Shown here: positions 4,247 through 36,834 of the stretch, piece after piece | Layout of the letters: each line of letters opens with the position of its first letter | How positions within the stretch are numbered: position 1 is the stretch's first letter | DNA from: a virus | Lineage: Duplodnaviria; Heunggongvirae; Uroviricota; Caudoviricetes | DNA length: 64,000 nt | Reading direction: 5' to 3' (one strand) | Virus record (IMG/VR): IMGVR_UViG_2875703104_000004 | Notes under the pieces: generated by a model | Databases searched by the model: none | What the model was told of the DNA's origin: nothing | Seen by the model: only the letters and a program-made list of their open reading frames with translations | Program-made: the position numbers and the translations under genes

Positions 4247-4260
4247 CACAGGGGGCTGAT

Positions 4261-4981: not shown

Positions 4982-4992
4982 AAGGGGGATGT

Positions 4993-5963: not shown

Positions 5964-5970
5964 GGACGAT

Positions 5971-6711: not shown

Positions 6712-6726
6712 TCCGGAGAGTCAGCG

Positions 6727-10054: not shown

Positions 10055-10380
10055 AAACCTTCCGCTGGAAAGTGAAACCCGGGATGGATGTGACATCGGC
10101 TCCTTCCGTCAGGGAGGTGCGCTTTGGTGATGGCTATTCCCAGCGTGCGCCTGCCGGGCTGAACGCTGACCTGAAAACGTACAGCGTGACGCTGTCTGTC
10201 TCCCGTGAGGAGGCCACGGCGCTGGAGTCGTTTCTGGCTGAGCACGGGGGCTGGAAGGCCTTTCTGTGGACGCCGCCTTATGGTTACAGGCAGATAAAGG
10301 TGACCTGCGCAAAATGGTCGTCGCGGGTCAGTATGCTGCGTGTTGAGTTCAGCGCAGAGTTTGAACAGGTGGTGAACTGA
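10051..10380 (+). CDS. M: minor tail protein M
   Basis: 109-aa ORF starting MKTFRWKVKP; overlaps the H stop. Confidence 0.85.
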   Translation: MKTFRWKVKPGMDVTSAPSVREVRFGDGYSQRAPAGLNADLKTYSVTLSVSREEATALESFLAEHGGWKAFLWTPPYGYRQIKVTCAKWSSRVSMLRVEFSAEFEQVVN

Positions 10381-11078
10381 TGCAGGATATCCGGCAGGAA
10401 ACATTGAATGAATGCACCCGTGCGGAGCAGTCGGCCAGCGTGGTGCTCTGGGAAATCGATCTGACAGAGGTCGGTGGAGAACGTTATTTTTTCTGTAATG
10501 AGCAGAACGAAAAAGGTGAGCCGGTCACCTGGCAGGGGCGACAGTATCAGCCGTATCCCATTCAGGGGAGTAGTTTTGAACTGAATGGCAAAGGCACCAG
10601 TACGCGCCCCACGCTGACGGTTTCTAACCTGTACGGTATGGTCACCGGGATGGTGGAAGATCTGCAGAGTCTGGTCGGCGGAACGGTGGTCAGGCGTAAG
10701 GTTTACGCCCGTTTTCTGGATGCGGTGAACTTCGTCAACGGAAACAGCGACGCCGATCCGGAGCAGGAGGTGATCAGCCGCTGGCGCATCGAGCAGTGCA
10801 GCGAACTGAGTGCGGTCAGTGCCTCCTTTGTACTGTCCACACCGACGGAAACGGATGGTGCCGTTTTTCCGGGGCGCATCATGCTGGCTAATACCTGCAC
10901 CTGGACCTATCGCGGTGATGAGTGCGGTTATCACGGTCCGGCGGTCGCGGATGAATATGATCAGCCGACTTCCGATATCACGAAGGATAAATGCAGCAAA
11001 TGCCTGAGCGGCTGTAAGTTTCGCAATAACGTCGGCAACTTTGGCGGCTTCCTTTCCATTAACAAACTTTCGCAGTAA
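10380..11078 (+). CDS. L: minor tail protein L
   Basis: 232-aa ORF with Cys-rich C-terminus CSKCLSGC and GNFGGFLSINKLSQ. Confidence 0.85.
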   Translation: MQDIRQETLNECTRAEQSASVVLWEIDLTEVGGERYFFCNEQNEKGEPVTWQGRQYQPYPIQGSSFELNGKGTSTRPTLTVSNLYGMVTGMVEDLQSLVGGTVVRRKVYARFLDAVNFVNGNSDADPEQEVISRWRIEQCSELSAVSASFVLSTPTETDGAVFPGRIMLANTCTWTYRGDECGYHGPAVADEYDQPTSDITKDKCSKCLSGCKFRNNVGNFGGFLSINKLSQ

Positions 11079-11083
11079 ATCCC

Positions 11084-11827
11084 ATGACAGAGACAGAATC
11101 AGCGATTCTGGCGCATGCCCGGCGATGTGCGCCAGCGGAGTCGTGCGGCTTCGTGGTGAGAGCGCCGGAGGGGGAAAGATATTTTCCCTGCGTGAATATC
11201 TCCGGTGAGCCGGAGGCGTATTTCCGGATGGCTCCGGAGGACTGGCTGCAGGCAGAGATGCAGGGTGAGATTGTGGCGCTGGTCCACAGTCATCCCGGTG
11301 GTCTGCCCTGGCTGAGTGAGGCCGACCGGCGGCTGCAGGTGCAGAGTGATTTGCCGTGGTGGCTGGTCTGCCGGGGGGCGATTCATAAGTTCCGCTGTGT
11401 GCCGCATCTCACCGGGCGGCGCTTTGAGCACGGGGTGACGGACTGTTACACGCTGTTCCGGGACGCTTACCATCTGGCGGGGATTGAGATGCCGGACTTT
11501 CATCGTGAGGATGACTGGTGGCGTAACGGCCAGAATCTCTATCTTGATAATCTGGAGGCCACAGGGCTGTATCAGGTGCCGTTGTCAGCGGCGCAGCCGG
11601 GCGATGTGCTGCTGTGCTGCTTTGGTTCATCGGTGCCGAATCATGCCGCTATTTACTGTGGTGACGGCGAGCTGCTGCACCATATTCCTGAACAACTGAG
11701 TAAACGAGAGAGGTATACCGACAAATGGCAGCGACGCACACACTCCCTCTGGCGTCACCGGGCATGGCGCGCATCTGCCTTTACGGGGATTTACAACGAT
11801 TTGGCCGCCGCATCGACCTTCGTGTGA
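11084..11827 (+). CDS. K: tail assembly protein K (JAB/MPN plus NlpC/P60-like domains)
   Basis: 247-aa ORF with HSHPGG motif (JAB metalloprotease-like) and Cys/His residues. Confidence 0.85.
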   Translation: MTETESAILAHARRCAPAESCGFVVRAPEGERYFPCVNISGEPEAYFRMAPEDWLQAEMQGEIVALVHSHPGGLPWLSEADRRLQVQSDLPWWLVCRGAIHKFRCVPHLTGRRFEHGVTDCYTLFRDAYHLAGIEMPDFHREDDWWRNGQNLYLDNLEATGLYQVPLSAAQPGDVLLCCFGSSVPNHAAIYCGDGELLHHIPEQLSKRERYTDKWQRRTHSLWRHRAWRASAFTGIYNDLAAASTFV

Positions 11828-12396
11828 AAACGGGGGCTGAAGCCATCCGCGCACTGGCCACACAGCTCCCGGTGTTTCGTCAGAAACTGAGCGACGGCTG
11901 GTATCAGGTACGGATTGCCGGGCGGGACGTCAGCACGTCCGGGTTAACGGCGCAGTTACATGAGACTCTGCCTGATGGCGCTGTGATTCATATTGTTCCC
12001 AGAGTCGCCGGGGCCAAGTCAGGTGGCGTATTCCAGATTGTCCTGGGGGCTGCCGCCATTGCCGGATCATTCTTTACCGCCGGAGCCACCCTTGCAGCAT
12101 GGGGGGCAGCCATTGGGGCCGGTGGTATGACCGGCATCCTGTTTTCTCTCGGTGCCAGTATGGTGCTCGGTGGTGTGGCGCAGATGCTGGCACCGAAAGC
12201 CAGAACTCCCCGTACACAGACAACGGATAACGGCAAACAGAACACCTATTTCTCCTCACTGGATAACATGGTTGCCCAGGGCAATGTTCTGCCGGTTCTG
12301 TACGGTGAAATGCGCGTGGGGTCACGCGTGGTTTCTCAGGAGATCAGCACGGCAGACGAAGGGGATGGTGGTCAGGTTGTGGTGATTGGTCGCTGA
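11725..12396 (+). CDS. I: tail assembly protein I
   Basis: ORF overlapping the 3' end of K; hydrophobic Gly/Ala-rich central segment and C-terminal ..GEMRVGSRVVSQEIS..; the start may instead be the internal ATG near 11764. Confidence 0.75.
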   Translation: MAATHTLPLASPGMARICLYGDLQRFGRRIDLRVKTGAEAIRALATQLPVFRQKLSDGWYQVRIAGRDVSTSGLTAQLHETLPDGAVIHIVPRVAGAKSGGVFQIVLGAAAIAGSFFTAGATLAAWGAAIGAGGMTGILFSLGASMVLGGVAQMLAPKARTPRTQTTDNGKQNTYFSSLDNMVAQGNVLPVLYGEMRVGSRVVSQEISTADEGDGGQVVVIGR

Positions 12397-12456
12397 TGCA
12401 AAATGTTTTATGTGAAACCGCCTCCGGGCGGTTTTATCGTTTATGGAGCATGAGGA

Positions 12457-15400
12457 ATGGGTAAAGGCAGCAGTAAGGGGCATACCCCGCGCGAAGCGAA
12501 GGACAACCTGAAATCATCCCAGATGCTGAGCGTGATAGACGCCATCAGCGAAGGGCCGGTTGAAGGTCCGGTGGATGGATTAAAAAGCGTGCTGCTGAAC
12601 AGTACGCCGGTGCTGGACAGTGAGGGGAATACCAATATATTCGGCGTCACGGTGGTGTTCCGGGCCGGTGAGCAGGAGCAGACACCGCCGGAGGGATTTG
12701 AATCCTCCGGCTCCGAGACGGTGCTCGGTACAGAAGTGAAATATGACACGCCGATCACCCGGACCATCACGTCGGCAAACATTGACCGTCTGCGTTTTAC
12801 TTTCGGCGTGCAGGCACTGGTGGAAACCACCTCAAAGGGGGACAGGAATCCATCGGAAGTCCGCCTGCTGGTTCAGATTCAACGTAACGGTGGCTGGGTG
12901 ACGGAAAAAGACATCACCATTAAGGGCAAAACCACGTCGCAGTATCTGGCCTCGGTGGTGGTGGATAACCTGCCGCCGCGCCCGTTTAATATCCGGATGC
13001 GCAGGATGACGCCGGACAGCACCACAGACCAGTTGCAGAACAAAACGCTCTGGTCGTCATACACCGAAATCATCGATGTGAAACAGTGCTACCCGAACAC
13101 GGCACTGGTCGGCGTACAGGTGGACTCGGAGCAGTTCGGCAGCCAGCAGGTGAGCCGTAATTATCATCTTCGCGGGCGCATTCTGCAGGTGCCGTCGAAC
13201 TATAACCCGCAGACGCGGCAATACAGCGGTATCTGGGACGGAACGTTTAAGCCAGCATACAGCAACAACATGGCCTGGTGTCTGTGGGATATGCTGACCC
13301 ATCCGCGCTACGGCATGGGGAAACGTCTTGGTGCGGCAGATGTGGATAAATGGGCGCTGTATGTCATCGGCCAGAATTGCGACCAGTCAGTGCCGGACGG
13401 CTTTGGCGGCACGGAGCCGCGCATCACCTGTAATGCGTACCTGACCACACAGCGCAAGGCGTGGGATGTGCTCAGTGATTTTTGCTCGGCGATGCGCTGT
13501 ATGCCGGTATGGAACGGGCAGACGCTGACATTCGTGCAGGACCGACCGTCGGATAAGGTGTGGACCTATAACCGCAGTAATGTGGTGATGCCGGATGATG
13601 GCGCGCCGTTCCGCTACAGCTTCAGCGCCCTGAAAGACCGCCATAATGCCGTTGAGGTGAACTGGATTGACCCGGATAACGGCTGGGAGACGGCGACAGA
13701 GCTTGTGGAGGACACGCAGGCCATTGCCCGTTACGGTCGTAACGTCACGAAGATGGATGCCTTTGGCTGTACCAGCCGGGGGCAGGCACACCGCGCCGGG
13801 CTGTGGCTGATTAAAACGGAGCTGCTGGAAACGCAGACCGTGGACTTCAGCGTGGGTGCAGAAGGGCTTCGCCATGTACCGGGCGATGTCATTGAAATCT
13901 GTGATGATGACTATGCGGGGATCAGCATCGGCGGGCGCGTGCTGGCGGTGAACAACCAGACGCGGACACTGACGCTCGACCGTGAAATCACGCTGCCATC
14001 CTCCGGCACCACGCTGATAAGCCTGGCTGACGGACAGGGGAATCCGGTCAGCGTGGAGGTCCAGTCCGTCACCGACGGCGTGAAGGTAAAAGTGAGCCGT
14101 GTTCCTGACGGCGTTGCAGAATACAGCGTGTGGGGGCTGAAGTTGCCAACGTTGCGCCAGCGCCTGTTCCGCTGTGTGAGTATCCGTGAGAACGATGACG
14201 GCACGTATGCCATCACTGCCGTGCAGCATGTACCGGAAAAAGAGGCCATCGTGGATAACGGGGCGCACTTTGACGGCGACCAGAGCGGCACGGTGAATGG
14301 TGTCACGCCGCCAGCGGTGCAGCACCAGCGGGGAATATCAGGTGCTGGCGCGCTGGGACACGCCGAAGGTGGTGAAGGGGGTGAGCTTTATGCTTCGCCT
14401 GACCGTGGCAGCGGATGACGGCAGTGAGCGGCTGGTCAGCACGGCCCGGACGACGGAAACCACATACCGCTTCAGGCAACTGGCGCTGGGGAACTACAGG
14501 CTGACAGTCCGGGCGGTAAATGCGTGGGGGCAGCAGGGCGATCCGGCATCGGTATCGTTCCGGATTGCCGCACCGGCAGCGCCGTCGCAGATTGAGCTGA
14601 CACCGGGGTATTTTCAGATAACCGCCACGCCGCATCTTGCGGTTTATGATCCGACGGTACAGTTTGAGTTCTGGTTCTCGGAAAAGCGGATTGCGGATAT
14701 CAGGCAGGTTGAAACCACAGCACGCTATCTTGGCACGGCGCTGTACTGGATAGCCGCCAGTATCAATATCAAACCGGGCCATGATTATTATTTTTACATC
14801 CGCAGTGTGAACACCGTTGGCAAATCGGCATTTGTGGAGGCTGTTGGCCAGCCGAGTGATGATGCATCCGGCTATCTGAATTTTTTCAAAGGAGAGATAG
14901 GGAAAACCCATCTGGCTCAGGAGTTGTGGACGCAGATTGATAACGGTCAGCTTGCGCCTGACCTGGCTGAAATCAGGACGTCCATTACGGGTGTCAGCAA
15001 TGAAATCACGCAGACCGTCAATAAGAAACTGGAAGACCAGAGTGCAGCGATCCAGCAGATACAGAAGGTTCAGGTTGATACAAATAATAACCTGAACAGC
15101 ATGTGGGCTGTGAAGCTGCAGCAGATGCAGGACGGACGCCTTTATATCGCGGGTATTGGTGCCGGTGTTGAGAATACTCCTGACGGTATGCAGAGTCAGG
15201 TGCTGCTGGCGGCGGACAGGATTGCGATGATTAATCCTGCGAATGGCAACACAAAGCCGATGTTTGTTGGGCAGGGCGATCAGATATTCATGAACGAAGT
15301 GTTCCTGAAATATCTGACGGCTCCCACCATTACCAGCGGTGGCAATCCCCCAACGTTTTCACTGACACCTGATGGTCGACTTTCTGCGAAAAATGCGGAT

Positions 15401-15916
15401 ATCAGCGGTAACGTGAACGCGAACTCCGGGACGCTCAACAACGTCACGATTAATCAGAACTGTCGGATTCTGGGAAAACTGTCAGCTAACCAGATTGAAG
15501 GTGATATTGTCAAAACGGTGGGAAAAGCCTTTCCGAGAAATGGCAGTTATGCCAGCGGTACAATAACGGTCACTGTGTACGATGACCAGGCTTTTGACCG
15601 TCAGATAGTAGTCCCCCCCGTTCTGTTTCGTGGGGGTAAGCATGAAAACTTCAACAGCAACAACCAACAGTCATACTGGTATTCAACCTGTAAGCTGCAG
15701 GTACTGAAGAACGGACAGGAAATCTTTCAGCAACCCGCGACGGATGTCAGCAGGGTATTTTCATCAGTCATTGATATGCCTGCCGGACACGGCCATGTCA
15801 CCCTGACTTTCAATGTTTCTTCATATGGTGCTAATAACTGGACGCCAACGACCAGTATCAGCGACCTTCTTGTTGTTGTGATGAAGAAATCTACAGCCGG
15901 TATCAGTATCAGTTGA
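12457..15916 (+). pseudogene. J: tail tip / host specificity protein J, frame broken at about 14326-14333
   Basis: ORFs 12457..14418 and 14297..15916 both fit J; this copy has 7 nt where the intact third-module J has 30 nt. Confidence 0.8.
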
Positions 15917-15934
15917 ATTTTATAACCCAGATAC

Positions 15935-15960
15935 GGGCGCCAGAAATGGCGCCTTTTTTA
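15935..15960 (+). terminator. rho-independent terminator downstream of J
   Basis: gggcgcc-agaaat-ggcgcc hairpin followed by TTTTTT; identical element at 57963-57988. Confidence 0.6.
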
Positions 15961-15974
15961 TTTGTGGAGTGAAT

Positions 15975-16799
15975 ATGGCAGTACAGATTTCAGGCGTGCT
16001 GAAAGACGGTGCAGGAAAACCGATACAGAACTGCACCATTCAGCTCAAAGCAAAACGTAACAGCACCACGGTTGTGGTGAACACGGTGGCCTCAGAAAAT
16101 CCGGATGAAGCCGGACGTTACAGCATGGATGTCGAGTATGGCCAGTACAGCGTTATCCTGCTGGTTGAAGGTTTTCCGCCTTCACATGCCGGGGCCATCA
16201 CCGTGTATGAGGATTCTAAGCCGGGGACATTGAATGATTTTCTGGGCGCTGCAACAGAAGATGATGTTCGTCCGGAGGCACTGTATCGTTTTGAAAAGAT
16301 GGTGGAAGAGGTGGCACGCAACGCTGAAGCCGCCTCTCAGAGCGCAGCGGCAGCAAAGAAATCAGAAACAGCAGCGGCATCGTCCAGGAATGCGGCGAAA
16401 ACATCAGAGACGAATGCAGGTAACAGCGCGAAAGCGGCAGCTTCTTCAAAAACAGCCGCACAAAACGCAGCAACAGCGGCAGAACGTTCAGAGACAAATG
16501 CCCGTGCGTCAGAAGAAGCCTCCGCAGACAGTGAAGAGGCTTCCCGCCGTAATGCAGAGTCAGCCGCTGAAAATGCCGGAGTCGCCACCACAAAAGCGCG
16601 GGAGGCCGCAGCAGACGCAACAAAGGCCGGGCAGAAAAAGGATGAGGCTCTGTCGGCAGCGATAATTAAAAACGATGCACACCGGGTTTTTACCGCGTTA
16701 ATGATTCGCGGGTTTATCCCGGTGCGATGGTGGAAGAAACAGGAAGCTGTATTACAGAAAGTGCTACTACTGTATCCCGATGCGATGTATGTAATGTGA
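15975..16799 (+). pseudogene. stf: side tail fibre protein, N-terminal fragment only
   Basis: Starts MAVQISGVLKDGAGKPIQNCTIQLKAKRNSTTVVVNTVASENPDEAGRYSMDVEYGQYSV with Ala/Ser-rich repeats; ORF ends after ~275 codons in unrelated sequence. Confidence 0.7.
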
Positions 16800-16881
16800 G
16801 TCAGATAATGGCACAGGATGTGGTGATGTGGCAGTCTGGAACACAGGATATATTGTCAGAATAAGACCCGTAGGAATAAAA

Positions 16882-17208
16882 ATGAAAAGACGCCTTTTAC
16901 TACTTTTTCTGTTATCTGTCCTGGCAGTGGGATGCTCGCAGCAAAAAGCTGATGAGCCCCGGCAATTAGTGACGGTGTATCCACGATATCCGGAATATGC
17001 TGCAGCAAATTATATCAAGGGGCTGGTTGAGGTTAAGTTCGATATTGGTGCTGATGGGACTGTGACACGGATCGTTTTTCTCCGCTCAGAGCCTCATAAT
17101 TTGTTTCGTGATGAAGTGGTGAAGGCCATGGCGAAATGGCGATTTGAAAAGAATCGCCCCTGTCAGGGAGTGAAGAGACAATTTATCTTTACGCCGTCAC
17201 GTCCTTGA
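16882..17208 (+). CDS. small lipoprotein with TonB C-terminal-like domain
   Basis: MKRRLLLLFLLSVLAVGCSQ is a signal peptide with lipobox; the rest (YP.YP..A....G.VEVKF.I.ADG.V..I....S.......EV..A...WRF) fits the TonB_C pattern. Confidence 0.6.
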   Translation: MKRRLLLLFLLSVLAVGCSQQKADEPRQLVTVYPRYPEYAAANYIKGLVEVKFDIGADGTVTRIVFLRSEPHNLFRDEVVKAMAKWRFEKNRPCQGVKRQFIFTPSRP

Positions 17209-17300
17209 TGCTTCCAGGTAGAGAGGGGCTGGANGCAGGAGAAAAATGAAAGAGCCAGCGGTTATATTTTTGTCATGGCTGACGAGGAATGATGGAAGAA

Positions 17301-17323
17301 GGCGTTGTATGCCACACAACGCC
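17301..17323. terminator. hairpin between convergent genes (possible bidirectional terminator)
   Basis: ggcgttgt-atgccac-acaacgcc, a perfect 8-bp stem flanked by T-rich sequence on both strands. Confidence 0.45.
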
Positions 17324-17330
17324 TCACTGT

Positions 17331-17823
17331 TCATTTCTTCTTTTTCTCTGGTGGAACCCGATGAATAAGAGTTGCACTGGTTTCCGATGAGATGGCGATA
17401 TACTCGGGCAAAGTATGCTGGCAGTTTTCCAACTGGTCAAAAATACCTGCTCTCGTCTGTTGCAATGCCTGCAGCATGCGGCGGCAATGCGCCTTGCTTT
17501 TACTAACCATCTTTCCTTCCTCTATCAGTCGCTGCGTGAACTCATCATGNAATACCAGGTAAATGCGGATGTTATCGGTTTTGGCTACGCAGCATAGTAC
17601 AAAACGGACAGGTGCATCCCGGGACGGGGGAGGCGTCACATGTCCCTGTGATGGTTGTTCCGGGTAATGNACTGTGTGGGGCATAAAAATGTCCGATAAT
17701 TTTACTTTCTACCGCAGTTAGTTGATTCGTTGGTCCTGGTAGCACATTGGGCGAGGATTTAAATGCCAGGCAACTGAAGGATGATGTNGCAAGGGAGATA
17801 GCGAGAATATTTCTGATTTTCAT
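17331..17823 (-). CDS. candidate secreted protein gene(s); frame uncertain because of ambiguous bases
   Basis: Minus-strand ORF from ATG 17823 begins MKIRNILAISL.TSSFSCLA (signal-peptide-like) with several Cys; an overlapping ORF 17331..17684 continues in another frame; n bases at 17550, 17670 and 17788. Confidence 0.3.
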
Positions 17824-17838
17824 TTGATGATGCCTCTG

Positions 17839-18138
17839 TGTGAAATGACGGTAAACGACGCACTTGTGCCGGCACATAATAGCAAGCACCATAATAGATC
17901 AGATTCGATTCTTGCTGTAAGTGATAATTATTCTCGTTTTCGGGTCCTTTCCGTCGATCCAACAGGTTACGGGGCGGCGACCTCGCGGTGTGAAATGACG
18001 GTAAACGACGCACTTGTGCCGGCACATAATAGCAAGCACCATAATAGATCAGATTCGATTCTTGCTGTAAGTGATAATTATTCTCGTTTTCGGGTCCTTT
18101 CCGTCGATCCAACAGGTTACGGGGCGGCGACCTCGCGG
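17839..18138. repeat. tandem duplication (2 x 150 bp) of the phage right-end / cosQ-cosN segment
   Basis: tgtgaaatgacggtaaacgacgcac...ggttacggggcggcgacctcgcgg occurs at 17839-17988 and 17989-18138; each copy ends in a cosN-like GGGCGGCGACCT. Confidence 0.85.
18122..18133 (+). other. cosN-like cohesive-end sequence GGGCGGCGACCT (second copy at 17972-17983)
   Basis: Followed by CGCGGGTTTTCGCTATTTATGAAAATTTT and the Nu1 gene, the arrangement remembered for the lambda left end. Confidence 0.75.
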
Positions 18139-18302
18139 GTTTTCGCTATTTATGAAAATTTTTAGGGAAAAATCAGATCCGTTTTTCTTCTTTTTAACTG
18201 ATTGATTATCAATAGAATTTTAAAAATATAAAAGGATCTAACAAAGGCTGTTTTTGTTAGAAAACGCCATTTTCAGATCCTTTCTGGTTCCCGGGGGAGT
18301 GT

Positions 18303-18851
18303 ATGAACGTCAATAAGAAAAAACTGGCCGATATTTTTGGCGTTGATGTCAGGACCATCACCGCCTGGCAGAGTCAGGGGTTACCACTAGTTTCTGGTGG
18401 AGGGAAAGGGACTGAATCAGTTTTTGATACAACTGCTGCCATTCAGTGGTATGCGCAGAGGGAAGCTGATATTAAAAACGAAAAACTCCGTAAAGAGATC
18501 GAGGATTTGAGGGCTGCCAGCGAATCAGACCTTCAGCCCGGCACCATTGATTACGAACGTTACCGACTGACGAAGGCACAGGCCGATGCACAGGAGCTGA
18601 AAAATGCTCGTGAGGAAGGCCTTGTCCTCGAGACGGAGTTATTTACCTACATCTTTCAGCGAGTGGCACAGAATATATCAGGGATCCTTGTCCGTGTCCC
18701 TCAGACACTGCAGCGTAAATACCCTGATATATCACCCGTACATCTTGATGCTGTGAAAACTGAAATCGCGAAAGCATCCGATGTGGCTTCTGAAGCCGGT
18801 GAGAATGTGCGCAGGTGGATTGATGATTTCAGACGAACTGAGGGCGGCTAA
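18303..18851 (+). CDS. Nu1: terminase small subunit (lambda Nu1-like)
   Basis: 182-aa ORF with N-terminal winged-[27 protein letters not shown] and conserved [25 protein letters not shown]. Confidence 0.9.
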
Positions 18852-20751
18852 TTCTGCAGGAGCGATAGCAACCGGCCTCCTTGCGCTAAAAATTCCTGTC
18901 CCTCTGACGACAGTTCAGTGGGCAGATCGACATTATTACCTTCCGAAAGAGTCATCTTACACCCCGGGGCGGTGGGAAACACTGCCGTTTCAGGTTGCCA
19001 TCATGAACAGCATGGGGAATGACCGGATCCGCACTGTTAATCTGATTAAATCTGCCCGTGTTGGTTATACAAAGATGTTGCTGGGAGTGGAGGCTTATTT
19101 TATTGAGCATAAATCACGCAACAGCCTTCTTTTCCAGCCCACGGATTCTGCTGCTGAAGATTTTATGAAATCTCATGTGGAACCCACGATCAGGGATGTG
19201 CCGGTTTTACTCGATCTTGCACCGTGGTTTGGGCGTAAACATCGTGATAATACCCTCACGCTGAAACGTTTTTCATCGGGCGTGGGCTTCTGGTGCCTGG
19301 GCGGGGCTGCCGCTAAAAACTACCGTGAAAAATCCGTGGACGTGGTCTGCTATGACGAACTTTCCTCGTTCGAACCGGATGTCGAAAAAGAGGGTTCGCC
19401 AACCCTGCTTGGGGATAAACGTATTGAGGGCTCGGTATGGCCAAAATCCATTCGCGGCTCGACGCCTAAAATAAAAGGCTCCTGCCAGATCGAAAAAGCG
19501 GCCAACGAGTCGGCGCATTTCATGCGTTTTTATGTGCCCTGCCCACACTGTGGGGAGGAGCAGTATCTGAAATTTGGCGATGAATCCACGCCTTTTGGCC
19601 TTAAATGGGAGAAAGACAGCCCCGAAAGCGTTTTCTACCTCTGTGAACATCATGGCTGCGTGATCCATCAGTCTGAGCTTGACCAGAGCAACGGGCGGTG
19701 GATCTGTGAAAACACGGGGATGTGGACCCGTGACGGTCTGACGTTTTTCAGCGCCGCGGATAATGAAATTCCGCCGCCGCGCTCCATCACGTTCCATATC
19801 TGGACGGCGTACAGTCCGTTCACCACCTGGGTACAGATAGTCTATGACTGGCTGGATGCACTGAAAGATCCCAACGGCCTGAAAACCTTTGTGAACACCA
19901 CGCTGGGCGAGACCTGGGAAGAGGCCGTGGGCGAAAAACTCGATCACCAGGTACTGATGGATAAGGTCGTGCATTACACGGCGGCGGTGCCAGCCCGGGT
20001 GGTTTATCTGACGGCGGGCATTGACTCGCAGCGAAACCGTTTTGAGATGTATGTCTGGGGATGGGCACCGGGAGAGGAAGCTTTTCTGGTGGATAAAATC
20101 ATCATTATGGGCCGTCCCGATGAGGAAGAGACGCTGTTACGTGTGGATGCGGCGATCAACAAAAAATACTGCCATGCAGACGGAACCGAAATGACCATTT
20201 CCCGTGTCTGCTGGGACACCGGGGGGATCGATGGTGAAATTGTCTATCAGAGGTCAAAAAAACACGGTGTTTTCCGGGTGCTGCCGGTAAAAGGTGCATC
20301 TGTTTATGGCAAGCCGGTGATCACCATGCCAAAAACCCGCAATCAGCGGGGCGTGTATCTGTGCGAAGTGGGGACGGACACCGCAAAAGAAATTCTCTAT
20401 GCCCGTATGAAAGCCGATCCCACGCCTGCGGATGAAGCCACGTCGTATGCCATCCGTTTTCCTGATGATCCGGAGATTTTTTCGCAGACAGAGGCGCAGC
20501 AACTGGTGGCGGAAGAGCTTGTGGAGAAGTGGGAAAAAGGAAAGATGCGTCTGCTGTGGGATAACAAAAAGCGGCGTAACGAAGCGCTGGACTGCCTGGT
20601 GTATGCCTATGCGGCATTACGTGTGTCCGTGCAACGCTGGCAGCTTGATCTGGCTGTACTGGCAAAATCCCGGGAAGAAGAGACGACCCGGCCAACCCTT
20701 AAAGAACTGGCAGCGAAGCTGTCCGGAGGAGTGAATGGTTACAGTCGCTGA
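18823..20751 (+). CDS. A: terminase large subunit (lambda gpA-like)
   Basis: ORF overlapping the Nu1 stop; motifs [37 protein letters not shown] and WDTGGID fit lambda A. Confidence 0.9.
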
Positions 20752-20941
20752 ACTACAGGCGCTGCGTCAGGCGCGCCTTGATTTATTAACCGGTAAACGG
20801 GTGGTGTCTGTCCAGAAAGATGGTCGCAGAATTGAATATACGGCGGCCTCTCTGGATGAGCTTAACCGTGCGATCAATGATGCTGAGTTGGTACTGGGGA
20901 CAACCCGCCGTCGCCGTCGTCCGCTGGGAGTGAGGTTATGA
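20735..20941 (+). CDS. W: head-tail joining protein W
   Basis: 68-aa ORF with LTGKRVVSVQKDGRRIEYTAASL; overlaps the A stop and the B start. Confidence 0.8.
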   Translation: MVTVAELQALRQARLDLLTGKRVVSVQKDGRRIEYTAASLDELNRAINDAELVLGTTRRRRRPLGVRL

Positions 20942-22646
20942 AACGAACGCCTGTCCTGATTGATGTGAACGGCGTTCCGCTTCGGGAGAGCCTCAGCTAC
21001 AACGGGGGCGGCGCAGGATTTGGCGGGCAAATGGCGGAGTGGTTGCCACCGGCGCAGAGTGCCGATGCGGCCCTGCTGCCCGCGTTGCGTCTGGGGAATG
21101 CCCGGGCAGATGATCTGGTGCGCAATAACGGGATAGCGGCCAATGCGGTGGCCCTGCATAAGGATCACATTGTCGGGCATATGTTTCTTATCAGCTACCG
21201 CCCGAACTGGCGCTGGCTGGGGATGCGGGAGACCGCGACAAAAAGTTTTGTCGATGAGGTGGAGGCGGCCTGGTCAGAATACGCAGAAGGGATGTTTGGT
21301 GAGATCGACGTGGAAGGGAAACGCACGTTTACGGAATTTATCCGTGAAGGTGTGGGCGTTCATGCGTTTAACGGCGAAATCTTTGTGCAGCCGGTCTGGG
21401 ATACGGAGAGCACGCAACTGTTTCGTACGCGTTTTAAAGCCGTGAGTCCGAAACGGGTGGACACGCCAGGACACGGTATCGGGAACCGTTTTCTGCGGGC
21501 CGGTGTGGAGGTTGATCGATATGGCCGTGCCGTTGCGTACCATATCTGTGAGGATGATTTTCCTCGCTCCGGGAGTGGACGATGGGAACGGATCCCGCGT
21601 GAACTTCCCACCGGGCGTCCGGCCATGCTGCATATTTTCGAGCCGGTGGAGGACGGGCAGACCCGTGGGGCCAACCAGTTTTACAGCGTCATGGAACGGC
21701 TGAAGATGCTCGATTCCCTGCAGGCAACACAGCTTCAGTCGGCCATTGTCAAGGCGATGTATGCAGCGACAATTGAAAGTGAACTGGATACCGAAAAGGC
21801 CTTTGAATATATCGCCGGTGCGCCGCAGGGGCAGAAGGATAATCCGCTTATTAATATTCTGGAGAAGTTCTCCAGCTGGTATGACACGAATAACGTGACG
21901 CTGGGCGGTGTCAAAATTCCGCACCTTTTCCCTGGTGATGATCTGAAACTACAGACAGCGCAGGATTCAGACAATGGATTTTCTGCGCTTGAACAGGCGC
22001 TGCTGCGGTATATCGCCGCCGGTCTTGGCGTTTCCTACGAACAGTTGTCCCGTGATTACTCGAAGGTCAGTTACTCAAGTGCCCGCGCCTCCGCCAATGA
22101 GTCGTGGAACAGGCGCTGCTGCGGTATATCGCCGCCGGTCTTGGCGTTTCCTACGAACAGTTGTCCCGTGATTACTCGAAGGTCAGTTACTCAAGTGCCC
22201 GCGCCTCCGCCAATGAGTCGTGGCGCTATTTTATGGGGCGGCGAAAATTTATTGCGTCCCGGCTGGCCACGCAGATGTTTTCCTGCTGGCTGGAAGAGGC
22301 ACTTCTGCGGGGGATTATCCGTCCGCCACGGGCACGTTTTGATTTTTATCAGGCGCGTTCAGCCTGGTCACGGGCTGAGTGGATTGGTGCCGGAAGAATG
22401 GCCATTGACGGGCTCAAGGAGGTTCAGGAATCGGTGATGCGTATTGATTCCGGACTGAGCACGTATGAGAAAGAGCTGGCGCTGATGGGCGAGGATTATC
22501 AGGACATTTTCCGCCAGCAGGTCAGGGAATCTGCAGAGCGGGAAAAAGCCGGACTCTCACGTCCGGTGTGGATAGCGCAGGCGTATCAGCAGCAGATAGC
22601 GGAGAGTCGCAGGCCGGAAGAGGAGACAACACCACGTGAGACGTAA
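20938..22646 (+). pseudogene. B: portal protein (lambda gpB-like), frame broken by the same 116-bp tandem duplication
   Basis: ORF 20938..22437 plus C-terminal ORF 22104..22646 in another frame; paralogue of 1..1244. Confidence 0.8.
21991..22222. repeat. tandem direct duplication, 2 x 116 bp, same sequence as 589-820
   Basis: gaacaggcgctgctgcgg...gagtcgtg at 21991-22106 and 22107-22222. Confidence 0.9.
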
Positions 22647-24689
22647 TCTTTCACACATTATTGCAGCAGCATTCAATGAACCGCTGCTTCTGGAGCCCGC
22701 CTATGCGCGGGTTTTCTTTTGCGCGCTCGGGCGCGAGATGGGGGCAGCAAGTCTTTCGGTACCGCAACAGCAGGTACAGCTTGATGCTCCCGGGATGCTG
22801 GCTGAAACGGACGAGTACATGGCCGGAGGTAAACGACCGGCCCGTGTTTACCGGGTGGTGAACGGTATTGCGGTACTGCCGGTGACCGGCACGCTGGTGC
22901 ACCGGCTGGGGGGGATGCGGCCATTTTCCGGAATGACTGGCTATGACGGCATTGTCGCCTGTCTTCAGCAGGCAATGGCAGATAGCCAGGTGCGGGGCAT
23001 ACTGCTGGACATTGACAGTCCGGGCGGGCAGGCCGCCGGCGCGTTTGACTGCGTTGACATGATTTACCGCCTCCGGCAGCAGAAGCCGGTCTGGGCACTG
23101 TGCAATGACACGGCCTGTTCTGCAGCCATGCTGCTGGCGTCGGCCTGCTCCCGACGGCTGGTTACCCAGACATCCCGTATCGGCTCCATTGGCGTGATGA
23201 TGAGCCATGTCAGCTATGCCGGTCATCTGGCGCAGGCCGGTGTGGATATCACGCTGATTTACTCAGGGGCGCACAAGGTGGATGGCAATCAGNGGTGCAC
23301 CGGCTGGGTGGTATGCGGCCATTTTCCGGAATGACAGGCTATGACGGCATTGTCGCCTGTCTTCAGCAGGCAATGGCGGATAGCCAGGTGCGGGGCGTAC
23401 TGCTGGACATTGACAGTCCGGGCGGGCAGGCCGCCGGCGCGTTTGACTGCGCTGACATGATTTACCGCCTCCGTCAGCAGAAGCCGGTCTGGGCACTGTG
23501 CAATGACACGGCCTGTTCTGCAGCCATGCTGCTGGCGTCGGCCTGCTCCCGACGGCTGGTTACCCAGACATCCCGTATCGGCTCCATTGGCGTGATGATG
23601 AGCCATGTCAGCTATGCCGGTCATCTGGCGCAGGCCGGTGTGGATATCACGCTGATTTANNCNGGGGCGCACAAGGTGGATGGCAATCAGTTTGAAGCGT
23701 TGCCGGCAGAGGTTCGCCAGGACATGCAGCAGCGGATTGATGCGGCGCGCCGGATGTTTGCCGAAAAAGTGGCGATGTATACCGGTCTGTCTGTTGATGC
23801 CGTCACGGGAACAGAGGCTGCCGTTTTTGAAGGTCAGTCCGGCATTGAGGCCGGGCTGGCGGATGAATTAATCAATGCGTCGGATGCCATCAGTGTGATG
23901 GCCACGGCGCTGAACAGTAATGTCAGAGGAGGCACTATGCCGCAATTAACTGCAACGGAAGCCGCCGCTGCCGTTTTTGAAGGTCAGTCCGGCATTGAGG
24001 CCGGGCTGGCGGATGAATTAATCAATGCGTCGGATGCCATCAGTGTGATGGCCACGGCGCTGAACAGTAATGTCAGAGGAGGCACTATGCCGCAATTAAC
24101 TGCAACGGAAGCCGCCGTGCAGGAGAACCAGCGAGTGATGGGGATCCTGACATGCCAGGAAGCGAAAGGACGTGAACAGCTTGCCACGATGCTGGCAGGG
24201 CAACAGGGCATGAGCGTTGAACAGGCCCGGGCGATTCTGGCCGCGGCGGCACCGCAGCAGCCGGTGGCATCCGCACAGAGTGAAGCCGATCGCATTATGG
24301 CGTGTGAAGAAGCGAACGGTCGTGAACAACTGGCAGCAACGCTGGCGGCGATGCCGGAGAGGACGGTGGAAAAAGCCCGCCCGATCCTGGCTGCTTCACC
24401 GCAGGCGAATGCCGGGCCCTCACTTCGTGATCAGATCATGGCACTGGATGAGGCAAAAGGGGCTGAGGCGCAGGCTGAACAGCTGGCTGCCTGCCCGGGA
24501 ATGACTGTGGAGAGCGCCCGGGCTGTGCTGGCTGCGGGATCAGGTAAGGCAGAACCGGTCTCTGCATCCACAACCGCCCTGTTTGAACATTTCATGGCGA
24601 ACCATTCACCGGCTGCGGTCCAGGGGGGCGTGTCACAGGCGTCAGAAGACGGTGATGCGGACGTGAAAATGCTCATGGCCATGCCATGA
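22636..24689 (+). CDS. C: prohead protease / scaffold (gpC-like), second copy, with internal duplications
   Basis: Same motifs as 1234..2739; frame interrupted at n 23293 where 22896-23292 is repeated at 23294-23690; additional in-frame 150-bp tandem duplication at 23821-24120. Confidence 0.7.
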
Positions 24690-24725
24690 AGTCAGTGCTG
24701 AACATCAATACGAGGTTTTAACAAT

Positions 24726-25073
24726 ATGGTGACGAAAACCATCACTGAACAGCGTGCGGAAGTACGTATTTTTGCCGGTAATGATCCGGCTCACACCGCC
24801 ACAGGCAGCAGCGGGATTTCCTCGGCAACACCGGCACTGACACCCCTGATGCTGGATGGGGCCACCGGGAAACTGGTGGTCTGGGACGGACAGAAAGCCG
24901 GTAGTGCGGTTGGCATACTGGTACTGCCGCTTGAAGGCACAGAGGCGGTGCTGACGTATTACAAGTCGGGGACCTTTGCGACGGAGGCAATCCGCTGGCC
25001 TGAAAGTGTGGATGAACACAAAAAGGCCAACGCCTTTACCGGCAGTGCCCTGAGTCACGCGGCGCTGCCGTAA
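24726..25073 (+). CDS. D: head decoration protein (gpD-like)
   Basis: Paralogue of 2776..3123 with a few substitutions. Confidence 0.8.
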   Translation: MVTKTITEQRAEVRIFAGNDPAHTATGSSGISSATPALTPLMLDGATGKLVVWDGQKAGSAVGILVLPLEGTEAVLTYYKSGTFATEAIRWPESVDEHKKANAFTGSALSHAALP

Positions 25074-25130
25074 CACGTTATCAGGCCACCGCGTTGGCCT
25101 GACTGATTTCTTAATGAAAGGAACTGATTT

Positions 25131-26159: not shown

Positions 26160-26165
26160 TCCGTG

Positions 26166-26196
26166 AGCGGGGGCGAAATGCCCCCGTGTCTTTTTT
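26166..26196 (+). terminator. terminator-like hairpin downstream of E (second copy)
   Basis: Same gcggggg-cgaaatg-cccccg hairpin plus TTTTTT as at 4216-4246. Confidence 0.55.
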
Positions 26197-26210
26197 CACA
26201 GGAGGCTGAG

Positions 26211-26940: not shown

Positions 26941-26955
26941 ACGCAGGGTGAAATT

Positions 26956-27881: not shown

Positions 27882-27888
27882 GGACGAT

Positions 27889-28635: not shown

Positions 28636-28653
28636 AGAGCTGAGAGATAAGCG

Positions 28654-35312: not shown

Positions 35313-35807
35313 ATGAACCGCGTACTGTGCGTGGTCATCATTGCCCTGCTGGTGGCCTGTGGTGCGCTTAGTCTGGGGCTGAATCATTACCGTGATAACG
35401 CCATAACCTACAAAGCCCAGCGCGACAAAAATGTCAGAGAACTGAAGCTGGCGAACGCGGCAATTACTGACATGCAGATGCGTCAGCGTGATGTTGCTGC
35501 GCTCGATGCAAAATACTCGAGGGAATTAGCCGATGCGAGAGCTGAAAATGAAACTCTTCGCGCTGACGTTGCCGCTGGTCGTAAGCGCCTGCGTATCAAC
35601 GCCACCTGTCCAGGTCCCGTGCGTGAAGCCACCGGTACCGCCCGCGTGGATAATGCAACCGGCCCCCAACTGGCAGACACCGCTGAACGGGATTATTTCA
35701 TCCTCAGAGAACGGCTGATGACAATGCAGAAGCAGCTGGAAGGGGCGCAGGAATATATCCGCACTCAGTGCACTAAGCTGGCTTTTTATTATCCGGAGGA
35801 TACATGA
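35313..35807 (+). CDS. Rz: i-spanin Rz
   Basis: N-terminal TM segment then [42 protein letters not shown], coiled-coil rich, as in lambda Rz. Confidence 0.85.
35533..35718 (+). CDS. Rz1: o-spanin Rz1, embedded in the +1 frame of Rz
   Basis: [15 protein letters not shown] lipobox, then Pro-rich [27 protein letters not shown]. Confidence 0.8.
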
Positions 35808-36028: not shown

Positions 36029-36226
36029 GCGACCTTATTATCCATGCGCGGTATTGTCGCCGTATTCCTGCATTAACAGAGACCGCAGCCCGACAGGGAG
36101 ACTCCTCTGCGCGAGTGTGCGGGGATAATCAAAAACGATACACACCGGGGTTTACCGCGTTAACGGAGCGCGGCGTTGTCCCCTCATAGTCGCCTGTCCG
36201 GTGCGATGGTGGAAGAAACCGAACGT

Positions 36227-36427
36227 TCATTTCTCGTTATTTGTCATGCTGGTCGGGCGCAGATGCGTTGCATCTGTTGCCAGCCTTCTCCTGCAGGCTT
36301 CAATAACCCACGCTGAAAAGTTACCGGACCCTTTATGCTCAAGGGCTATGTTGATTTGTTCAATTATGTGATTGGGGAAACGGATATTGCGGGTTGTGGT
36401 TCTGCGGGTCCGGTTTTTCGATGACAT
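36227..36427 (-). CDS. small basic protein, possible ribbon-helix-helix DNA-binding protein
   Basis: 66-aa ORF MSSKNRTRRTTTRNIRFPNHIIEQINIALEHKGSGNFSAWVIEACRRRL with AGGA RBS 7 nt upstream; divergent from the HNH gene. Confidence 0.35.
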   Translation of the reverse strand: MSSKNRTRRTTTRNIRFPNHIIEQINIALEHKGSGNFSAWVIEACRRRLATDATHLRPTSMTNNEK

Positions 36428-36468
36428 ATTTATTTCCTTTACTGATTGCCATATGACGGGGATTTTAC

Positions 36469-36834
36469 ATGGCTGAGCTTCGTACACTCCAGAGCAGAAT
36501 CAAAACACTGAATACCCGACGGGTGAATATTCTGAAGGGGGAACAGCGTCGTGTCAGTGGCAGTGCACGTGTTTCCCTCAAGCGTCATATCTGGCTGAGG
36601 GACGCCGGGCAGTGCTGTATCTGTGGTCGTGTGGTTGACCTCTGTGACAGTGAACTCGATCACCGAATTGCACTTCAGTTCGGTGGTGGTAATGAGGAGA
36701 CGAATCTCTGGACGCTCTGTACCGAATGCCATCGACAAAAGTCTGCTCGTGAAGCGGCGGGTGGTATGCCGGACCCGACGCTGCCGGAGGTGTCCGGAGG
36801 TAGTGACAGAGCGGACGACATCATCGGACTGTAA
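36469..36834 (+). CDS. HNH endonuclease, packaging-associated type
   Basis: CCICG..(n)..DHRIALQFGG..NLWTLCTECHRQK is an HNH zinc-finger nuclease motif; located immediately upstream of the terminase genes. Confidence 0.8.
   Translation: MAELRTLQSRIKTLNTRRVNILKGEQRRVSGSARVSLKRHIWLRDAGQCCICGRVVDLCDSELDHRIALQFGGGNEETNLWTLCTECHRQKSAREAAGGMPDPTLPEVSGGSDRADDIIGL

What the first reader, a model, noticed from the sequence alone, without database searches (positions are those of the whole stretch)
16640..16800. stf is truncated at a sequence element that recurs 19.5 kb away between Rz and the HNH gene
The stf ORF stops resembling tail fibre at about 16670 and runs into a segment sharing gataatyaaaaacgatrcacaccggg, accgcgttaa and ccggtgcgatggtggaagaaac with 36118-36220, which lies in the right-arm region of the third module. 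The shared element may be a recombination linker between lambdoid modules or a conserved non-coding element near phage right ends.
Basis: seen in the sequence. Interest (0 to 1): 0.4.

Follow-up and report, generated by a model that had tools for sequence, protein, structure and literature searches.

The report
Assembly seam beside a conserved phage element
The "truncated tail-fibre gene" is almost certainly a seam where two pieces of a rough draft genome assembly were butted together, and the repeated sequence next to it is a conserved non-coding stretch that lambda-like phages carry just after their lysis genes and that may fold into an undescribed RNA structure.

Summary
The repeat is real: 16661-16740 and 36124-36219 share three blocks, 71% over 97 columns, E 2.5e-8.

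It is not a discrete linker that cut stf. It is the 3' part of a sharply bounded ~185-nt island that lambdoid phages carry downstream of Rz and upstream of cos/terminase. Copy 2 (36045-36225) is complete; copy 1 starts in the middle of the island.

The stf/island junction at 16662 is best explained as a contig seam.
- Window 16662-17988 is a collapsed consensus of two prophage right ends (Nissle-type and MCJCHV-1-type). It has N at exactly the four sites where they differ.
- Those two copies become identical at exactly 16662.
- The flanking modules otherwise match complete genomes at 99.7-100%, but carry untrimmed 117-397-nt overlaps, N runs and private small deletions.
- The junction was found in none of 5,426 complete E. 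coli genomes, 50,697 phage records, IMG/VR, JGI metagenomes or a 5.8-billion-protein set.

By-product: the island, which lambda itself carries at 46,864-47,035, shows strand-specific, covariation-supported secondary structure and has no Rfam match. It is a candidate undescribed structured RNA.

The parts
15975..16662 (+). 5' 688 nt of the side-tail-fibre gene stf (229 codons plus 1 nt). It belongs to module 1, an icd/sitABCD-type phage-21-like prophage left arm.
   Evidence: 100% identical to the Nissle 1917 prophage stf; window 9065-16662 vs L130 has 0 mismatches. 100% identical to many lambda-like stf genes over 16560-16662. Pfam phage_tail_N 1.5e-69.
16661..16662 (.). The junction. Natural stf continues ...GCAGCGA|CACGAGC. 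The prophage right end reads ...GCGGG(A/G)|ATAATTAAAA. Microhomology is only 1-2 nt.
   Evidence: No place covering at least 80% of 16360-16960 in 5,426 complete E. coli genomes. No phage record spans it. No exact 38-mer match in GTDB representatives, JGI metagenomes or IMG/VR. The chimeric ORF is not on record.
16662..16740 (+). Copy 1 of the repeated element. Only the 3' ~45% of the conserved post-Rz island is present (middle hairpin and 3' hairpin). The 5' strands of helices 1, 2, 4 and 5 are missing.
   Evidence: Alignment to copy 2. The covariance model scores it 62 bits against 214.6 bits for copy 2.
16662..17988 (+). Collapsed consensus of two near-identical prophage right ends (island 3' half, small ORF, TonB_C gene, cosQ/cosN). 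There are N at 17234, 17550, 17670 and 17788.
   Evidence: Identical to both Nissle (L219) and MCJCHV-1 (L129) except at exactly the four sites where those two differ (A/C, G/T, T/C, C/T), and there the window has N. The two natural copies diverge leftward starting at 16661.
16882..17208 (+). TonB C-terminal-domain gene: cargo ('moron') downstream of the island, as in phage 21.
   Evidence: Pfam TonB_C 7.3e-13. Annotated as a TonB C-terminal domain protein in phage 21.
17838..18138 (+). Exact 151-bp tandem duplication that contains cosN: an untrimmed contig overlap.
   Evidence: Self-BLAST 17838-17988 = 17988-18138, 100%. Single copy in MCJCHV-1 and 308 genomes that otherwise span 17300-19300.
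35313..35807 (+). Rz spanin gene of the third module, the usual upstream neighbour of the island.
   Evidence: Pfam Phage_lysis 2.3e-49. Rz lies upstream on the same strand in 159 of 161 loci.
36045..36225 (+). Copy 2: the complete conserved island. Predicted helices: 36051-36057/36135-36141; 36063-36072/36118-36127; 36084-36088/36107-36111; 36089-36091/36096-36098; 36156-36159/36169-36172; 36196-36202/36218-36224.
   Evidence: Conservation profile, alignments A2/A3, RNAalifold, pair counts, covariance model 214.6 bits.
36227..36487 (-). DUF3950 (YlcI/YnfO-like) gene immediately downstream of the island.
   Evidence: Pfam DUF3950 4.4e-19. A YnfO homologue is on the minus strand downstream in 66 of 103 loci.
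36469..36834 (+). HNH endonuclease gene that precedes TerS/TerL of the HK97-type packaging module.
   Evidence: Pfam HNH 3.8e-07. Same order as in phage JLK-2012.

Best explanation
The window is a scaffolded short-contig draft of an E. coli strain that carries several lambdoid prophages. Every lambdoid right end carries a conserved ~185-nt non-coding island just downstream of Rz (or of bor/iss) and upstream of cos/terminase. The window therefore shows this sequence twice because it contains two right-end regions. Copy 2 (36045-36225) is the intact island of the HNH/HK97-type prophage. Copy 1 (16662-16740) is the start of a collapsed repeat contig (16662-17988). That contig represents the identical right-end segments of two other prophages: the icd/sit phage-21-like prophage (module 1) and a Qin-like prophage (module 2, as in strain MCJCHV-1). 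This repeat contig was placed directly after a contig that happens to end inside stf, a gene in which draft assemblies commonly break. The 'truncation of stf at the element' is thus a contig-to-contig seam, not a recombination product. Shown: the collapse, its exact left edge, the other assembly scars, and the uniqueness of the junction. Inferred: that the stf contig end and the repeat contig were abutted by the scaffolding software.
For: 1. Window 16662-17971 differs from phage 21 and from Nissle 1917 only at four positions, and from MCJCHV-1 only at the same four. At each of these the two natural types differ (A/C, G/T, T/C, C/T) and the window has N. This is a two-copy consensus.
2. Going leftward, the two natural copies first differ at 16661 (A vs G) and then at many positions. 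The identical two-copy repeat therefore starts at exactly 16662, the junction.
3. Window 16661-33182 is colinear with one MCJCHV-1 prophage at 99.7-100%. The joins are untrimmed overlaps of 151, 117, 397, 151 and 129 nt, together with N runs. That prophage's remaining tail genes reappear at 52072-59993, after an inserted block from another prophage.
4. Window 1-16662 is 99.99-100% identical to the Nissle prophage, yet carries a private 117-bp tandem duplication, a ~65-nt loss in H at 9068 and a 23-nt loss in J at 14326. No complete genome matches the J segment at 99% identity or better.
5. The junction is absent from 5,426 complete E. coli genomes, 50,697 phage records, GTDB representatives, JGI metagenomes and IMG/VR. 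No protein among 5.8 billion covers more than the first 84% of the chimeric ORF, and there is no exact product on record.
6. The neighbouring cos join (17300-19300) is natural, found in 308 genomes. The module 2 to module 3 join (32300-35300) is found in none.
7. Contigs of other draft assemblies end at many points in stf (product lengths 117-256 aa), and one ends at the very same nucleotide.
Against: The seam itself has neither N nor an overlap duplication, unlike most other joins in the window. Two other 'silent' joins, at 9068 and 14326, show that the pipeline can produce seams of this kind. I could not inspect reads or the assembly graph. I did not show that the left side (the stf end) is itself a repeat boundary in this strain; the SKESA contig that ends at the same nucleotide could equally mean that another genome carries a real alternative continuation there. 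A 1-2-nt microhomology junction is also what a genuine illegitimate recombination would look like.
Confidence: 0.85

Rival explanations
1. The junction is real. An illegitimate (microhomology) rearrangement, such as a deletion, a tandem-duplication joint or an inter-prophage fusion, joined stf codon 229/230 of the icd prophage to the interior of the island of another prophage. The result is a defective prophage.
For: There is 1-2 nt of microhomology and no N at the joint. An independent SKESA contig ends at the same stf nucleotide, which could reflect a fork caused by such a junction.
Against: The joint coincides to the base with the left edge of a collapsed two-copy repeat; a random breakpoint would do so with a probability of about 1 in 1000. 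The same record holds several other private structural anomalies inside otherwise 100%-identical sequence. The joint is seen in no other genome, phage, metagenome or protein set. Contig ends at many stf positions are common.
Confidence: 0.1
2. One reading: the shared element is a recombination 'linker', and homologous or site-specific exchange at the element joined stf to a right-arm module.
For: The island really is flanked by many alternative sequences (22 upstream x 23 downstream clusters, 57 combinations). Natural recombinants with a crossover inside it exist: L008 and MCJCHV-1 carry the 5' half of one island type and the 3' half of another.
Against: Natural stf contains no copy of the element or any similarity to it at the breakpoint, so there is nothing for homologous or site-specific exchange to act on. 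The break lies inside the island, not at a mosaic edge. The artefact evidence above applies as well.
Confidence: 0.03
3. The element is a crossover site for a tail-fibre DNA invertase (hix/gix/cix/pix type), because ATAATCAAAAACG resembles the hix half-site TTATCAAAAACC (recalled from memory).
For: 10 of 12 bases match one half-site by eye, and tail-fibre genes are classic invertase targets (established knowledge, not tested here).
Against: There is no inverted second half-site: the sequence continues ATRCACACCGGG. The two copies are direct, not inverted. The element's normal home is after Rz rather than in a tail-fibre gene (159 of 161 loci). Natural stf has no such site at the breakpoint.
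Confidence: 0.01

Closest known systems
Collapsed-repeat contigs and scaffold seams in short-read drafts of poly-lysogenic E. coli
   Same: Ambiguity codes sit exactly at the sites where two repeat copies differ. The contig edge lies at the first base where the copies become identical. There are untrimmed overlaps, N runs and breaks inside stf.
   Different: This particular seam carries no N and no overlap, so in the bare sequence it looks like a clean fusion ORF.
Phage lambda right-end intergenic region between bor and lambdap78 (NC_001416 46,864-47,035), and the E. coli K-12 DLP12 borD-ybcV spacer (NC_000913.3 579,005-579,177)
   Same: These are homologous copies of the same island, at the same position and orientation relative to Rz and bor.
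   Different: They are a lambda-type sequence variant, about 80% identical to copy 2 over the 100-nt 5' block that BLAST aligns, with the middle part replaced. Nothing is annotated there in either record.
Moron insertion sites / mosaic module boundaries of lambdoid phages (Juhala et al. 2000, as cited in PMC4104026)
   Same: Cargo genes differ between phages immediately downstream of the island: the TonB_C gene in phage 21 and JLK-2012, lambdap78/79 in lambda, ybcV/ybcW in DLP12, and none in window copy 2. Relative to copy 2, JLK-2012 has a 595-bp insert right at the 3' hairpin.
   Different: The best-described moron hotspot is downstream of pR'. This one is downstream of Rz. The conserved island itself is not cargo.
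Prophage-encoded anti-sRNAs AgvB/AsxR of EHEC (Tree et al. 2014, PMC4104026)
   Same: These are non-coding RNAs at conserved positions in lambdoid late regions.
   Different: They are 51-60-nt sRNAs that lie between pR'/moron and the lysis genes, convergent with the late operon. The island is ~185 nt, lies after Rz, has no terminator or promoter consensus, and has no Rfam match.

Membership tests
Assembly artefact: collapsed two-copy repeat contig abutted to another contig | Ambiguous bases exactly at the positions where the two genomic copies differ | tested here: met
   N at 17234, 17550, 17670 and 17788 are the only four Nissle-vs-MCJCHV-1 differences in 16662-17971.
Assembly artefact: collapsed two-copy repeat contig abutted to another contig | The contig edge coincides with the edge of the inter-copy identity | tested here: met
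   The copies differ at 16661 and further left and are identical from 16662 on. The junction is at 16661/16662.
Assembly artefact: collapsed two-copy repeat contig abutted to another contig | The adjacency is not found in closed genomes of close relatives | tested here: met
   0 of 5,426 complete genomes span the junction. Relatives at 99.7-100% identity (Nissle, MCJCHV-1) have stf-sitDCBA and Rz-island-TonB instead.
Assembly artefact: collapsed two-copy repeat contig abutted to another contig | No read or read-pair support across the seam | not testable with these tools
   No reads or assembly graph are available.
Conserved post-Rz island of lambdoid phages (sequence family defined here) | Homology to the ~185-nt island over its full length | tested here: met
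   Met for copy 2: 214.6 bits, model positions 1-186. Copy 1 has only the 3' part: 62 bits, with homology starting at 16662.
Conserved post-Rz island of lambdoid phages (sequence family defined here) | Synteny: downstream of Rz on the same strand and upstream of the packaging genes | tested here: met
   Met for copy 2 (Rz 35313-35807, HNH/TerS/TerL from 36469). Rz is upstream in 159 of 161 loci. Copy 1 has the packaging side (cos, Nu1), but its upstream neighbour is stf, which is anomalous.
Structured non-coding RNA | Base pairs maintained by compensatory changes, and strand specificity | tested here: met
   A3: 96.4% of cells paired, 9 pairs with double changes vs 3.6+-1.2 in shuffles (0 of 500). 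A5: 24 such pairs vs 6.7+-1.9 (this alignment is fitted to the model, so the counts lean towards the structure). RNAalifold gives -35.6 kcal/mol on the plus strand (tool run; -32.5 in the local run) against -11.9 on the minus strand.
Structured non-coding RNA | Evidence that the region is transcribed or processed as a discrete RNA | not testable with these tools
   No expression data. The single-sequence fold z-score is unremarkable (-1.1).
Any Rfam 15 family | Covariance-model match | tested here: not met
   No match at E <= 10 in 35900-36400. The only gathering-score hit in the whole window is ALIL at 60478-60594.
Protein-coding sequence | Third-codon-position excess of variation and an open frame in all members | tested here: not met
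   Variable columns by codon position are 14/9/11 in the only widely open frame (minus strand). Several members are frameshifted or stopped.
Hin-family invertase crossover site (hix/gix/cix/pix) | A 26-bp site with two inverted 12-bp half-sites, located at a tail-fibre constant/variable boundary | tested here: not met
   Only one half-site-like stretch, no dyad. The normal location is after Rz.
Intrinsic terminator / sigma-70 promoter | GC-rich hairpin plus T-run; -35/-10 hexamers | tested here: not met
   No promoter-like or terminator-like site inside 36045-36225, or in the phage 21 copy.
Dispersed repeat (MITE/REP/ERIC-like) | Many copies at non-syntenic sites | tested here: not met
   One copy per right end, always syntenic. 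The window has exactly two model hits.

The most novel reading that the evidence does not exclude
The shared element is part of an undescribed, ~185-nt structured RNA motif. It is carried on the late-transcript strand immediately after the lysis cassette (Rz, or Rz plus bor/iss) of lambda and its relatives: lambda 46,864-47,035, DLP12, phage 21, Stx phages, and prophages of Intestinirhabdus and Enterobacter. It has a multi-helix 5' domain, a variable middle hairpin and a 3' hairpin with a conserved purine-rich loop (GGUGGAAGAA). The 3' hairpin marks the exact point at which downstream cargo genes are exchanged. It would act in cis on the late mRNA, for example in processing or stability at the lysis/packaging boundary or in control of the downstream cargo. 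Its strong conservation would also make it the homology anchor for module shuffling.
Probability: 0.5. Interest if true: 0.5.

Novelty: not a real feature. Interest (0 to 1): 0.2.

Why it matters
As stated, the finding should not be pursued as biology. The fusion of stf to a right-arm element is a seam in a low-quality scaffold, and the 274-aa 'Stf' ORF with a 44-aa foreign tail is a prediction artefact. This matters in practice because such seams create false truncated genes and false evidence for module exchange in prophage-rich genomes. The N-at-paralogue-SNP signature gives a read-free way to recognise them.

The by-product could matter more. If the conserved island is a functional RNA, it would be a new cis element in the late operon of lambda. 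It would also give a concrete explanation for why cargo genes are swapped at one precise point downstream of the lysis genes.

Tried and rejected
1. Hix-like invertase site: rejected. There is no second half-site, the repeats are direct, and the element is not native to stf.

2. Coding sequence: a minus-strand frame (MCIVFDY...) is open in most members, but variation shows no codon periodicity (14/9/11) and several members are frameshifted.

3. Promoter or intrinsic terminator: none found by consensus scan.

4. Known RNA family: no Rfam hit, even at E <= 10. The AgvB/AsxR/StxS sRNAs lie elsewhere in the late region.

5. Chi site: the 3' hairpin loop holds GATGGTGG, one mismatch from GCTGGTGG (the Chi sequence is from memory). 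That octamer varies among island types (GGGGGTGG, GGTGGTGG, CTGACACG in lambda), so it is not conserved as Chi.

6. The idea that the stf contig ended at a fork between the two stf alleles of an MCJCHV-1-like genome: not supported. Those alleles are only ~83% identical.

7. The idea that the right side was a fork between the window's own two islands: the fork would be at 16667, not 16662. The correct pair turned out to be the Nissle-type and MCJCHV-1-type right ends.

8. Looking for the source record or other carriers through the chimeric protein and the junction 38-mer: nothing found.

9. Literature search for a described element after Rz/bor: nothing relevant found (one search failed on term length).

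10. Single-sequence thermodynamic stability of the island: not exceptional (z = -1.1). The structural case therefore rests on comparative evidence only.

Full report
**Observation.**
The two segments are present as described. They align as three near-exact blocks:
- 16661-16686 with 36124-36149 (26 nt, 2 mismatches);
- 16692-16701 with 36154-36163;
- 16719-16740 with 36198-36219.

Copy 2 has 17 extra nt between the second and third blocks. A self-BLAST of the window reports the pair at 71% over 97 columns, E 2.5e-8. The 18-nt core occurs exactly twice even with 3 mismatches allowed, against 0.10 expected from shuffles. The stf ORF (15975-16799) matches Pfam phage_tail_N at its N-terminus and changes source at 16662.

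**What normally flanks each side.**
Upstream of 16662 the sequence is 100% identical to stf of lambda-like phages. Downstream (16662-17971) it is 99.7% identical to the last 1,310 bp of phage 21. That stretch is the region between bor and cos, with a small ORF and a TonB C-terminal-domain gene. Natural stf continues ...GCAGCGA|CACGAGC, and phage 21 reads ...GCGGGA|ATAATT, so the two share only 1-2 nt at the joint.

In phage 21, PhiR47_2, Nissle 1917 and MCJCHV-1 the right-hand sequence always follows Rz (with or without bor/iss) and precedes cos-Nu1. Copy 2 lies in the equivalent place of a different prophage: R, Rz, a small ORF, the element, a DUF3950 gene on the minus strand, then HNH, TerS and TerL. 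This is the same order as in phage JLK-2012 and many Stx phages.

**The element is part of a larger, sharply bounded island.**
An 18-mer scan of IMG/VR plus reference loci gave 127 occurrences in 126 loci. Conservation rises from about 0.2-0.5 to 0.8-0.96 over roughly 185 nt and drops again on both sides. There are 22 upstream and 23 downstream flank clusters in 57 combinations. Lambda itself has the island at 46,864-47,035, between bor and lambdap78. K-12 DLP12 has it at 579,005-579,177, between borD and ybcV. Nothing is annotated at either place.

Synteny is strict. An Rz homologue lies upstream on the same strand in 159 of 161 loci. Nu1/A (74 of 103) or HNH-TerS-TerL (8 of 103) lie downstream.

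Window copy 2 (36045-36225) is complete. Copy 1 begins at the equivalent of 36125, in the interior of the island. In phage 21 and MCJCHV-1, homology to copy 2 runs about 80 nt further left than the junction. The left edge of the window's repeat is therefore set by the truncation, not by the element.

**The junction is an assembly seam.**
1. It is unique to this record. No place in 5,426 complete E. coli genomes covers at least 80% of 16360-16960, although 2,214 genomes hold one half or the other. No phage record spans it. The 38-mer across it is absent from GTDB representatives, JGI metagenomes and IMG/VR. The chimeric product is not on record, and no protein among 5.8 billion aligns beyond its first 84%.
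2. The window is a rough scaffold. It contains N runs at 31220-31240 and 33839-33859, scattered single N, and exact tandem duplicates of 117, 129 and 151 nt, plus a 397-nt duplicate at 97.5% identity.
3. Window 16661-33182 is colinear with one prophage of strain MCJCHV-1 at 99.7-100%. Each join is an untrimmed overlap or an N run. That prophage's remaining tail genes reappear at 52072-59993, after a block from a different prophage that lies about 190 kb away in MCJCHV-1. The module 2 to module 3 join is found in no complete genome, whereas the cos join is found in 308.
4. Window 1-16662 is 99.99-100% identical to the icd/sitABCD prophage of Nissle 1917. It nevertheless has a 117-bp duplication, a ~65-nt loss in H and a 23-nt loss in J. 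No complete genome matches the J segment at 99% identity or better. Structural scars without a single SNP are assembly scars, not decay.
5. The decisive point: across 16662-17971 the window differs from Nissle and phage 21, and from MCJCHV-1, only at 17234, 17550, 17670 and 17788. At these sites the two natural types differ from each other (A/C, G/T, T/C, C/T) and the window has N. Leftward, the two natural types first differ at 16661. Hence 16662-17988 is a collapsed consensus of two prophage right ends, and its left edge is the junction to the nucleotide.
6. Draft assemblies commonly break inside stf. Partial products of 117-256 aa are on record, and one SKESA contig ends at the very same base. 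I treat that coincidence as weak support only.

I conclude, with about 0.85 confidence, that a contig ending in stf was abutted to the collapsed right-end contig. In the real genome stf most likely continues into sitDCBA as in Nissle, and both islands are most likely intact behind their own Rz genes.

**Rivals.**
- A real microhomology-mediated rearrangement cannot be excluded without reads. It would have to hit the repeat edge by chance (about 0.1).
- A hix-like invertase site fails for lack of dyad symmetry and because of the synteny (about 0.01).

**What the island is.**
It is not coding. The only widely open frame (minus strand) shows no codon-position bias (14/9/11 variable columns), and some members are frameshifted. 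It has no sigma-70 promoter or intrinsic-terminator consensus and no Rfam match at E <= 10.

On the strand of the late transcript, RNAalifold predicts a 36-pair structure at -35.6 kcal/mol. A local run gave -32.5 on that strand against -11.9 on the other. Most high-frequency variation is U-A/U-G or C-G/U-G. Such changes keep pairs on this strand only.

The comparative evidence comes from two alignments:
- On a 51-sequence alignment that includes lambda-type members, 96.4% of cells pair. Nine pairs show double-sided changes against 3.6+-1.2 in shuffles (0 of 500). Slid controls reach at most 58% paired.
- A covariance model built from that alignment found the island in independent loci fetched through the Rz protein. 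All hits are on the Rz strand and downstream of Rz. They include divergent copies in Intestinirhabdus alba (124 bits) and Enterobacter intestinihominis (93 bits). In these, helix 1 (GUCCUGU/ACAGGGC against GcAUCGU/ACGAUgC) and the 3' hairpin (UCUGC/GCAGA and CUCGA/UCGAG against CCGGU/ACCGG) are rebuilt by compensatory changes.
- On that model-fitted alignment 24 pairs carry double-sided changes against 6.7+-1.9. The fitted alignment leans towards the structure.

No hit was found in the Citrobacter, Superficieibacter, Mangrovibacter, Kluyvera, Erwinia, Yokenella, Lelliottia or Shimwellia loci. Single-sequence stability is unremarkable (z = -1.1), and nothing here shows transcription or function.

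**How the island probably works (inferred, not shown).**
It is most likely a cis-acting structured segment of the late mRNA at the boundary between the lysis cassette and the cargo/packaging region. Because it is so conserved, it also serves as the homology anchor at which flanking cargo is exchanged. Three observations fit this:
- Homology ends exactly at the 3' hairpin.
- JLK-2012 has a 595-bp TonB-like insert there, flanked by an imperfect 7-nt direct repeat (GCCGGAC ... ACCGAAC).
- Lambda and DLP12 carry other genes at the same point.

Crossovers inside the island also occur: L008 and MCJCHV-1 carry the 5' half of one type and the 3' half of another.

**Verdict.**
The repeat is real, and it is ordinary homology between two prophage right ends. 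The stf truncation 'at' it is an assembly seam, so the headline feature is not real. The conserved island is worth a separate look as a candidate undescribed RNA motif that lambda itself carries.

Noticed in passing
window 36045-36225 (also lambda NC_001416 46,864-47,035; NC_000913.3 579,005-579,177): A sharply bounded ~185-nt conserved island downstream of Rz has strand-specific, covariation-supported secondary structure, no Rfam match and no annotation. It is a candidate undescribed structured RNA of lambdoid late transcripts.
   Followed up: yes
window 17838-18138; 589-821; 22896-23690; 23817-24117; 31091-31369; 33710-33988: Tandem duplicates of 151, 117, 151, 129 and 129 nt at 100% identity, plus one of 397 nt at 97.5%. 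Some flank N or N runs, and one contains cosN. All are single-copy in MCJCHV-1 or Nissle, so they are untrimmed contig overlaps.
   Followed up: yes
window 9068 and 14326: A ~65-nt loss in the tape-measure gene H and a 23-nt loss in J, both causing frameshifts, inside sequence otherwise 100% identical to the Nissle 1917 prophage. No complete genome among 5,426 matches the J segment at 99% identity or better. These are probably silent contig joins.
   Followed up: partly
window 50534-52704: Tail genes (the L/K region) appear as about three staggered copies. The period is ~584 nt at 94-100% identity, and single N sit at 50803, 51537 and 52071. This looks like unresolved repeat contigs from two prophages with homologous tail genes.
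   Followed up: no
window 33193-33838 and 52072-59993: The MCJCHV-1-type prophage (module 2) is split. Its tail genes L-K-I-J-lom-stf continue at 52072-59993, after an inserted 19-kb block (lysis genes plus HK97-type head genes) from another prophage. That other prophage lies ~190 kb away in MCJCHV-1.
   Followed up: partly
window 16742-17400; L006 2183-2777: The TonB C-terminal-domain gene is cargo inserted exactly at the island's 3' hairpin. Relative to window copy 2, JLK-2012 carries a 595-bp insert there, flanked by an imperfect 7-nt direct repeat (GCCGGAC ... ACCGAAC). Copy 2 looks like the empty or deleted site.
   Followed up: partly
L128 (GCA_048093755.1 contig DBFUDW010000049.1) 5174-5864: An independent SKESA contig (J-lom-stf) ends at exactly the stf nucleotide where the window's junction lies. 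Contig ends at many other stf positions are also on record. It is unclear whether this marks a recurrent fork at that base.
   Followed up: partly
L008, L020, L089, L129 (MCJCHV-1 prophage) vs L001/L007 types: Natural recombinant islands exist. The 5' half is identical to the Stx/HK97-type island and the 3' half to the phage-21 type, with the crossover inside GGGRATAATY, a few nt from the window's seam.
   Followed up: partly
window 60478-60594: ALIL pseudoknot (Rfam RF01497, 120 bits), the frameshift signal of an IS3-family insertion sequence. It lies just after another truncated stf N-terminus (about 58.5-60.0 kb).
   Followed up: no
L221-L244 and others: Dozens of species-representative genomes of unrelated bacteria hold a lambda-type Rz, all at the same 73% identity to the query. 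They include Pseudomonas, Shewanella, Kitasatospora, Oceanobacillus, Pedobacter and various MAGs. Several carry it on ~48.4-48.5-kb contigs at low coverage. This is most likely lambda control-DNA contamination in public assemblies.
   Followed up: no
window 35804-36028: A 74-aa ORF between Rz and the island has no Pfam match. This position holds bor/iss on the opposite strand in lambda, phage 21 and Nissle, so the slot upstream of the island is also variable.
   Followed up: no
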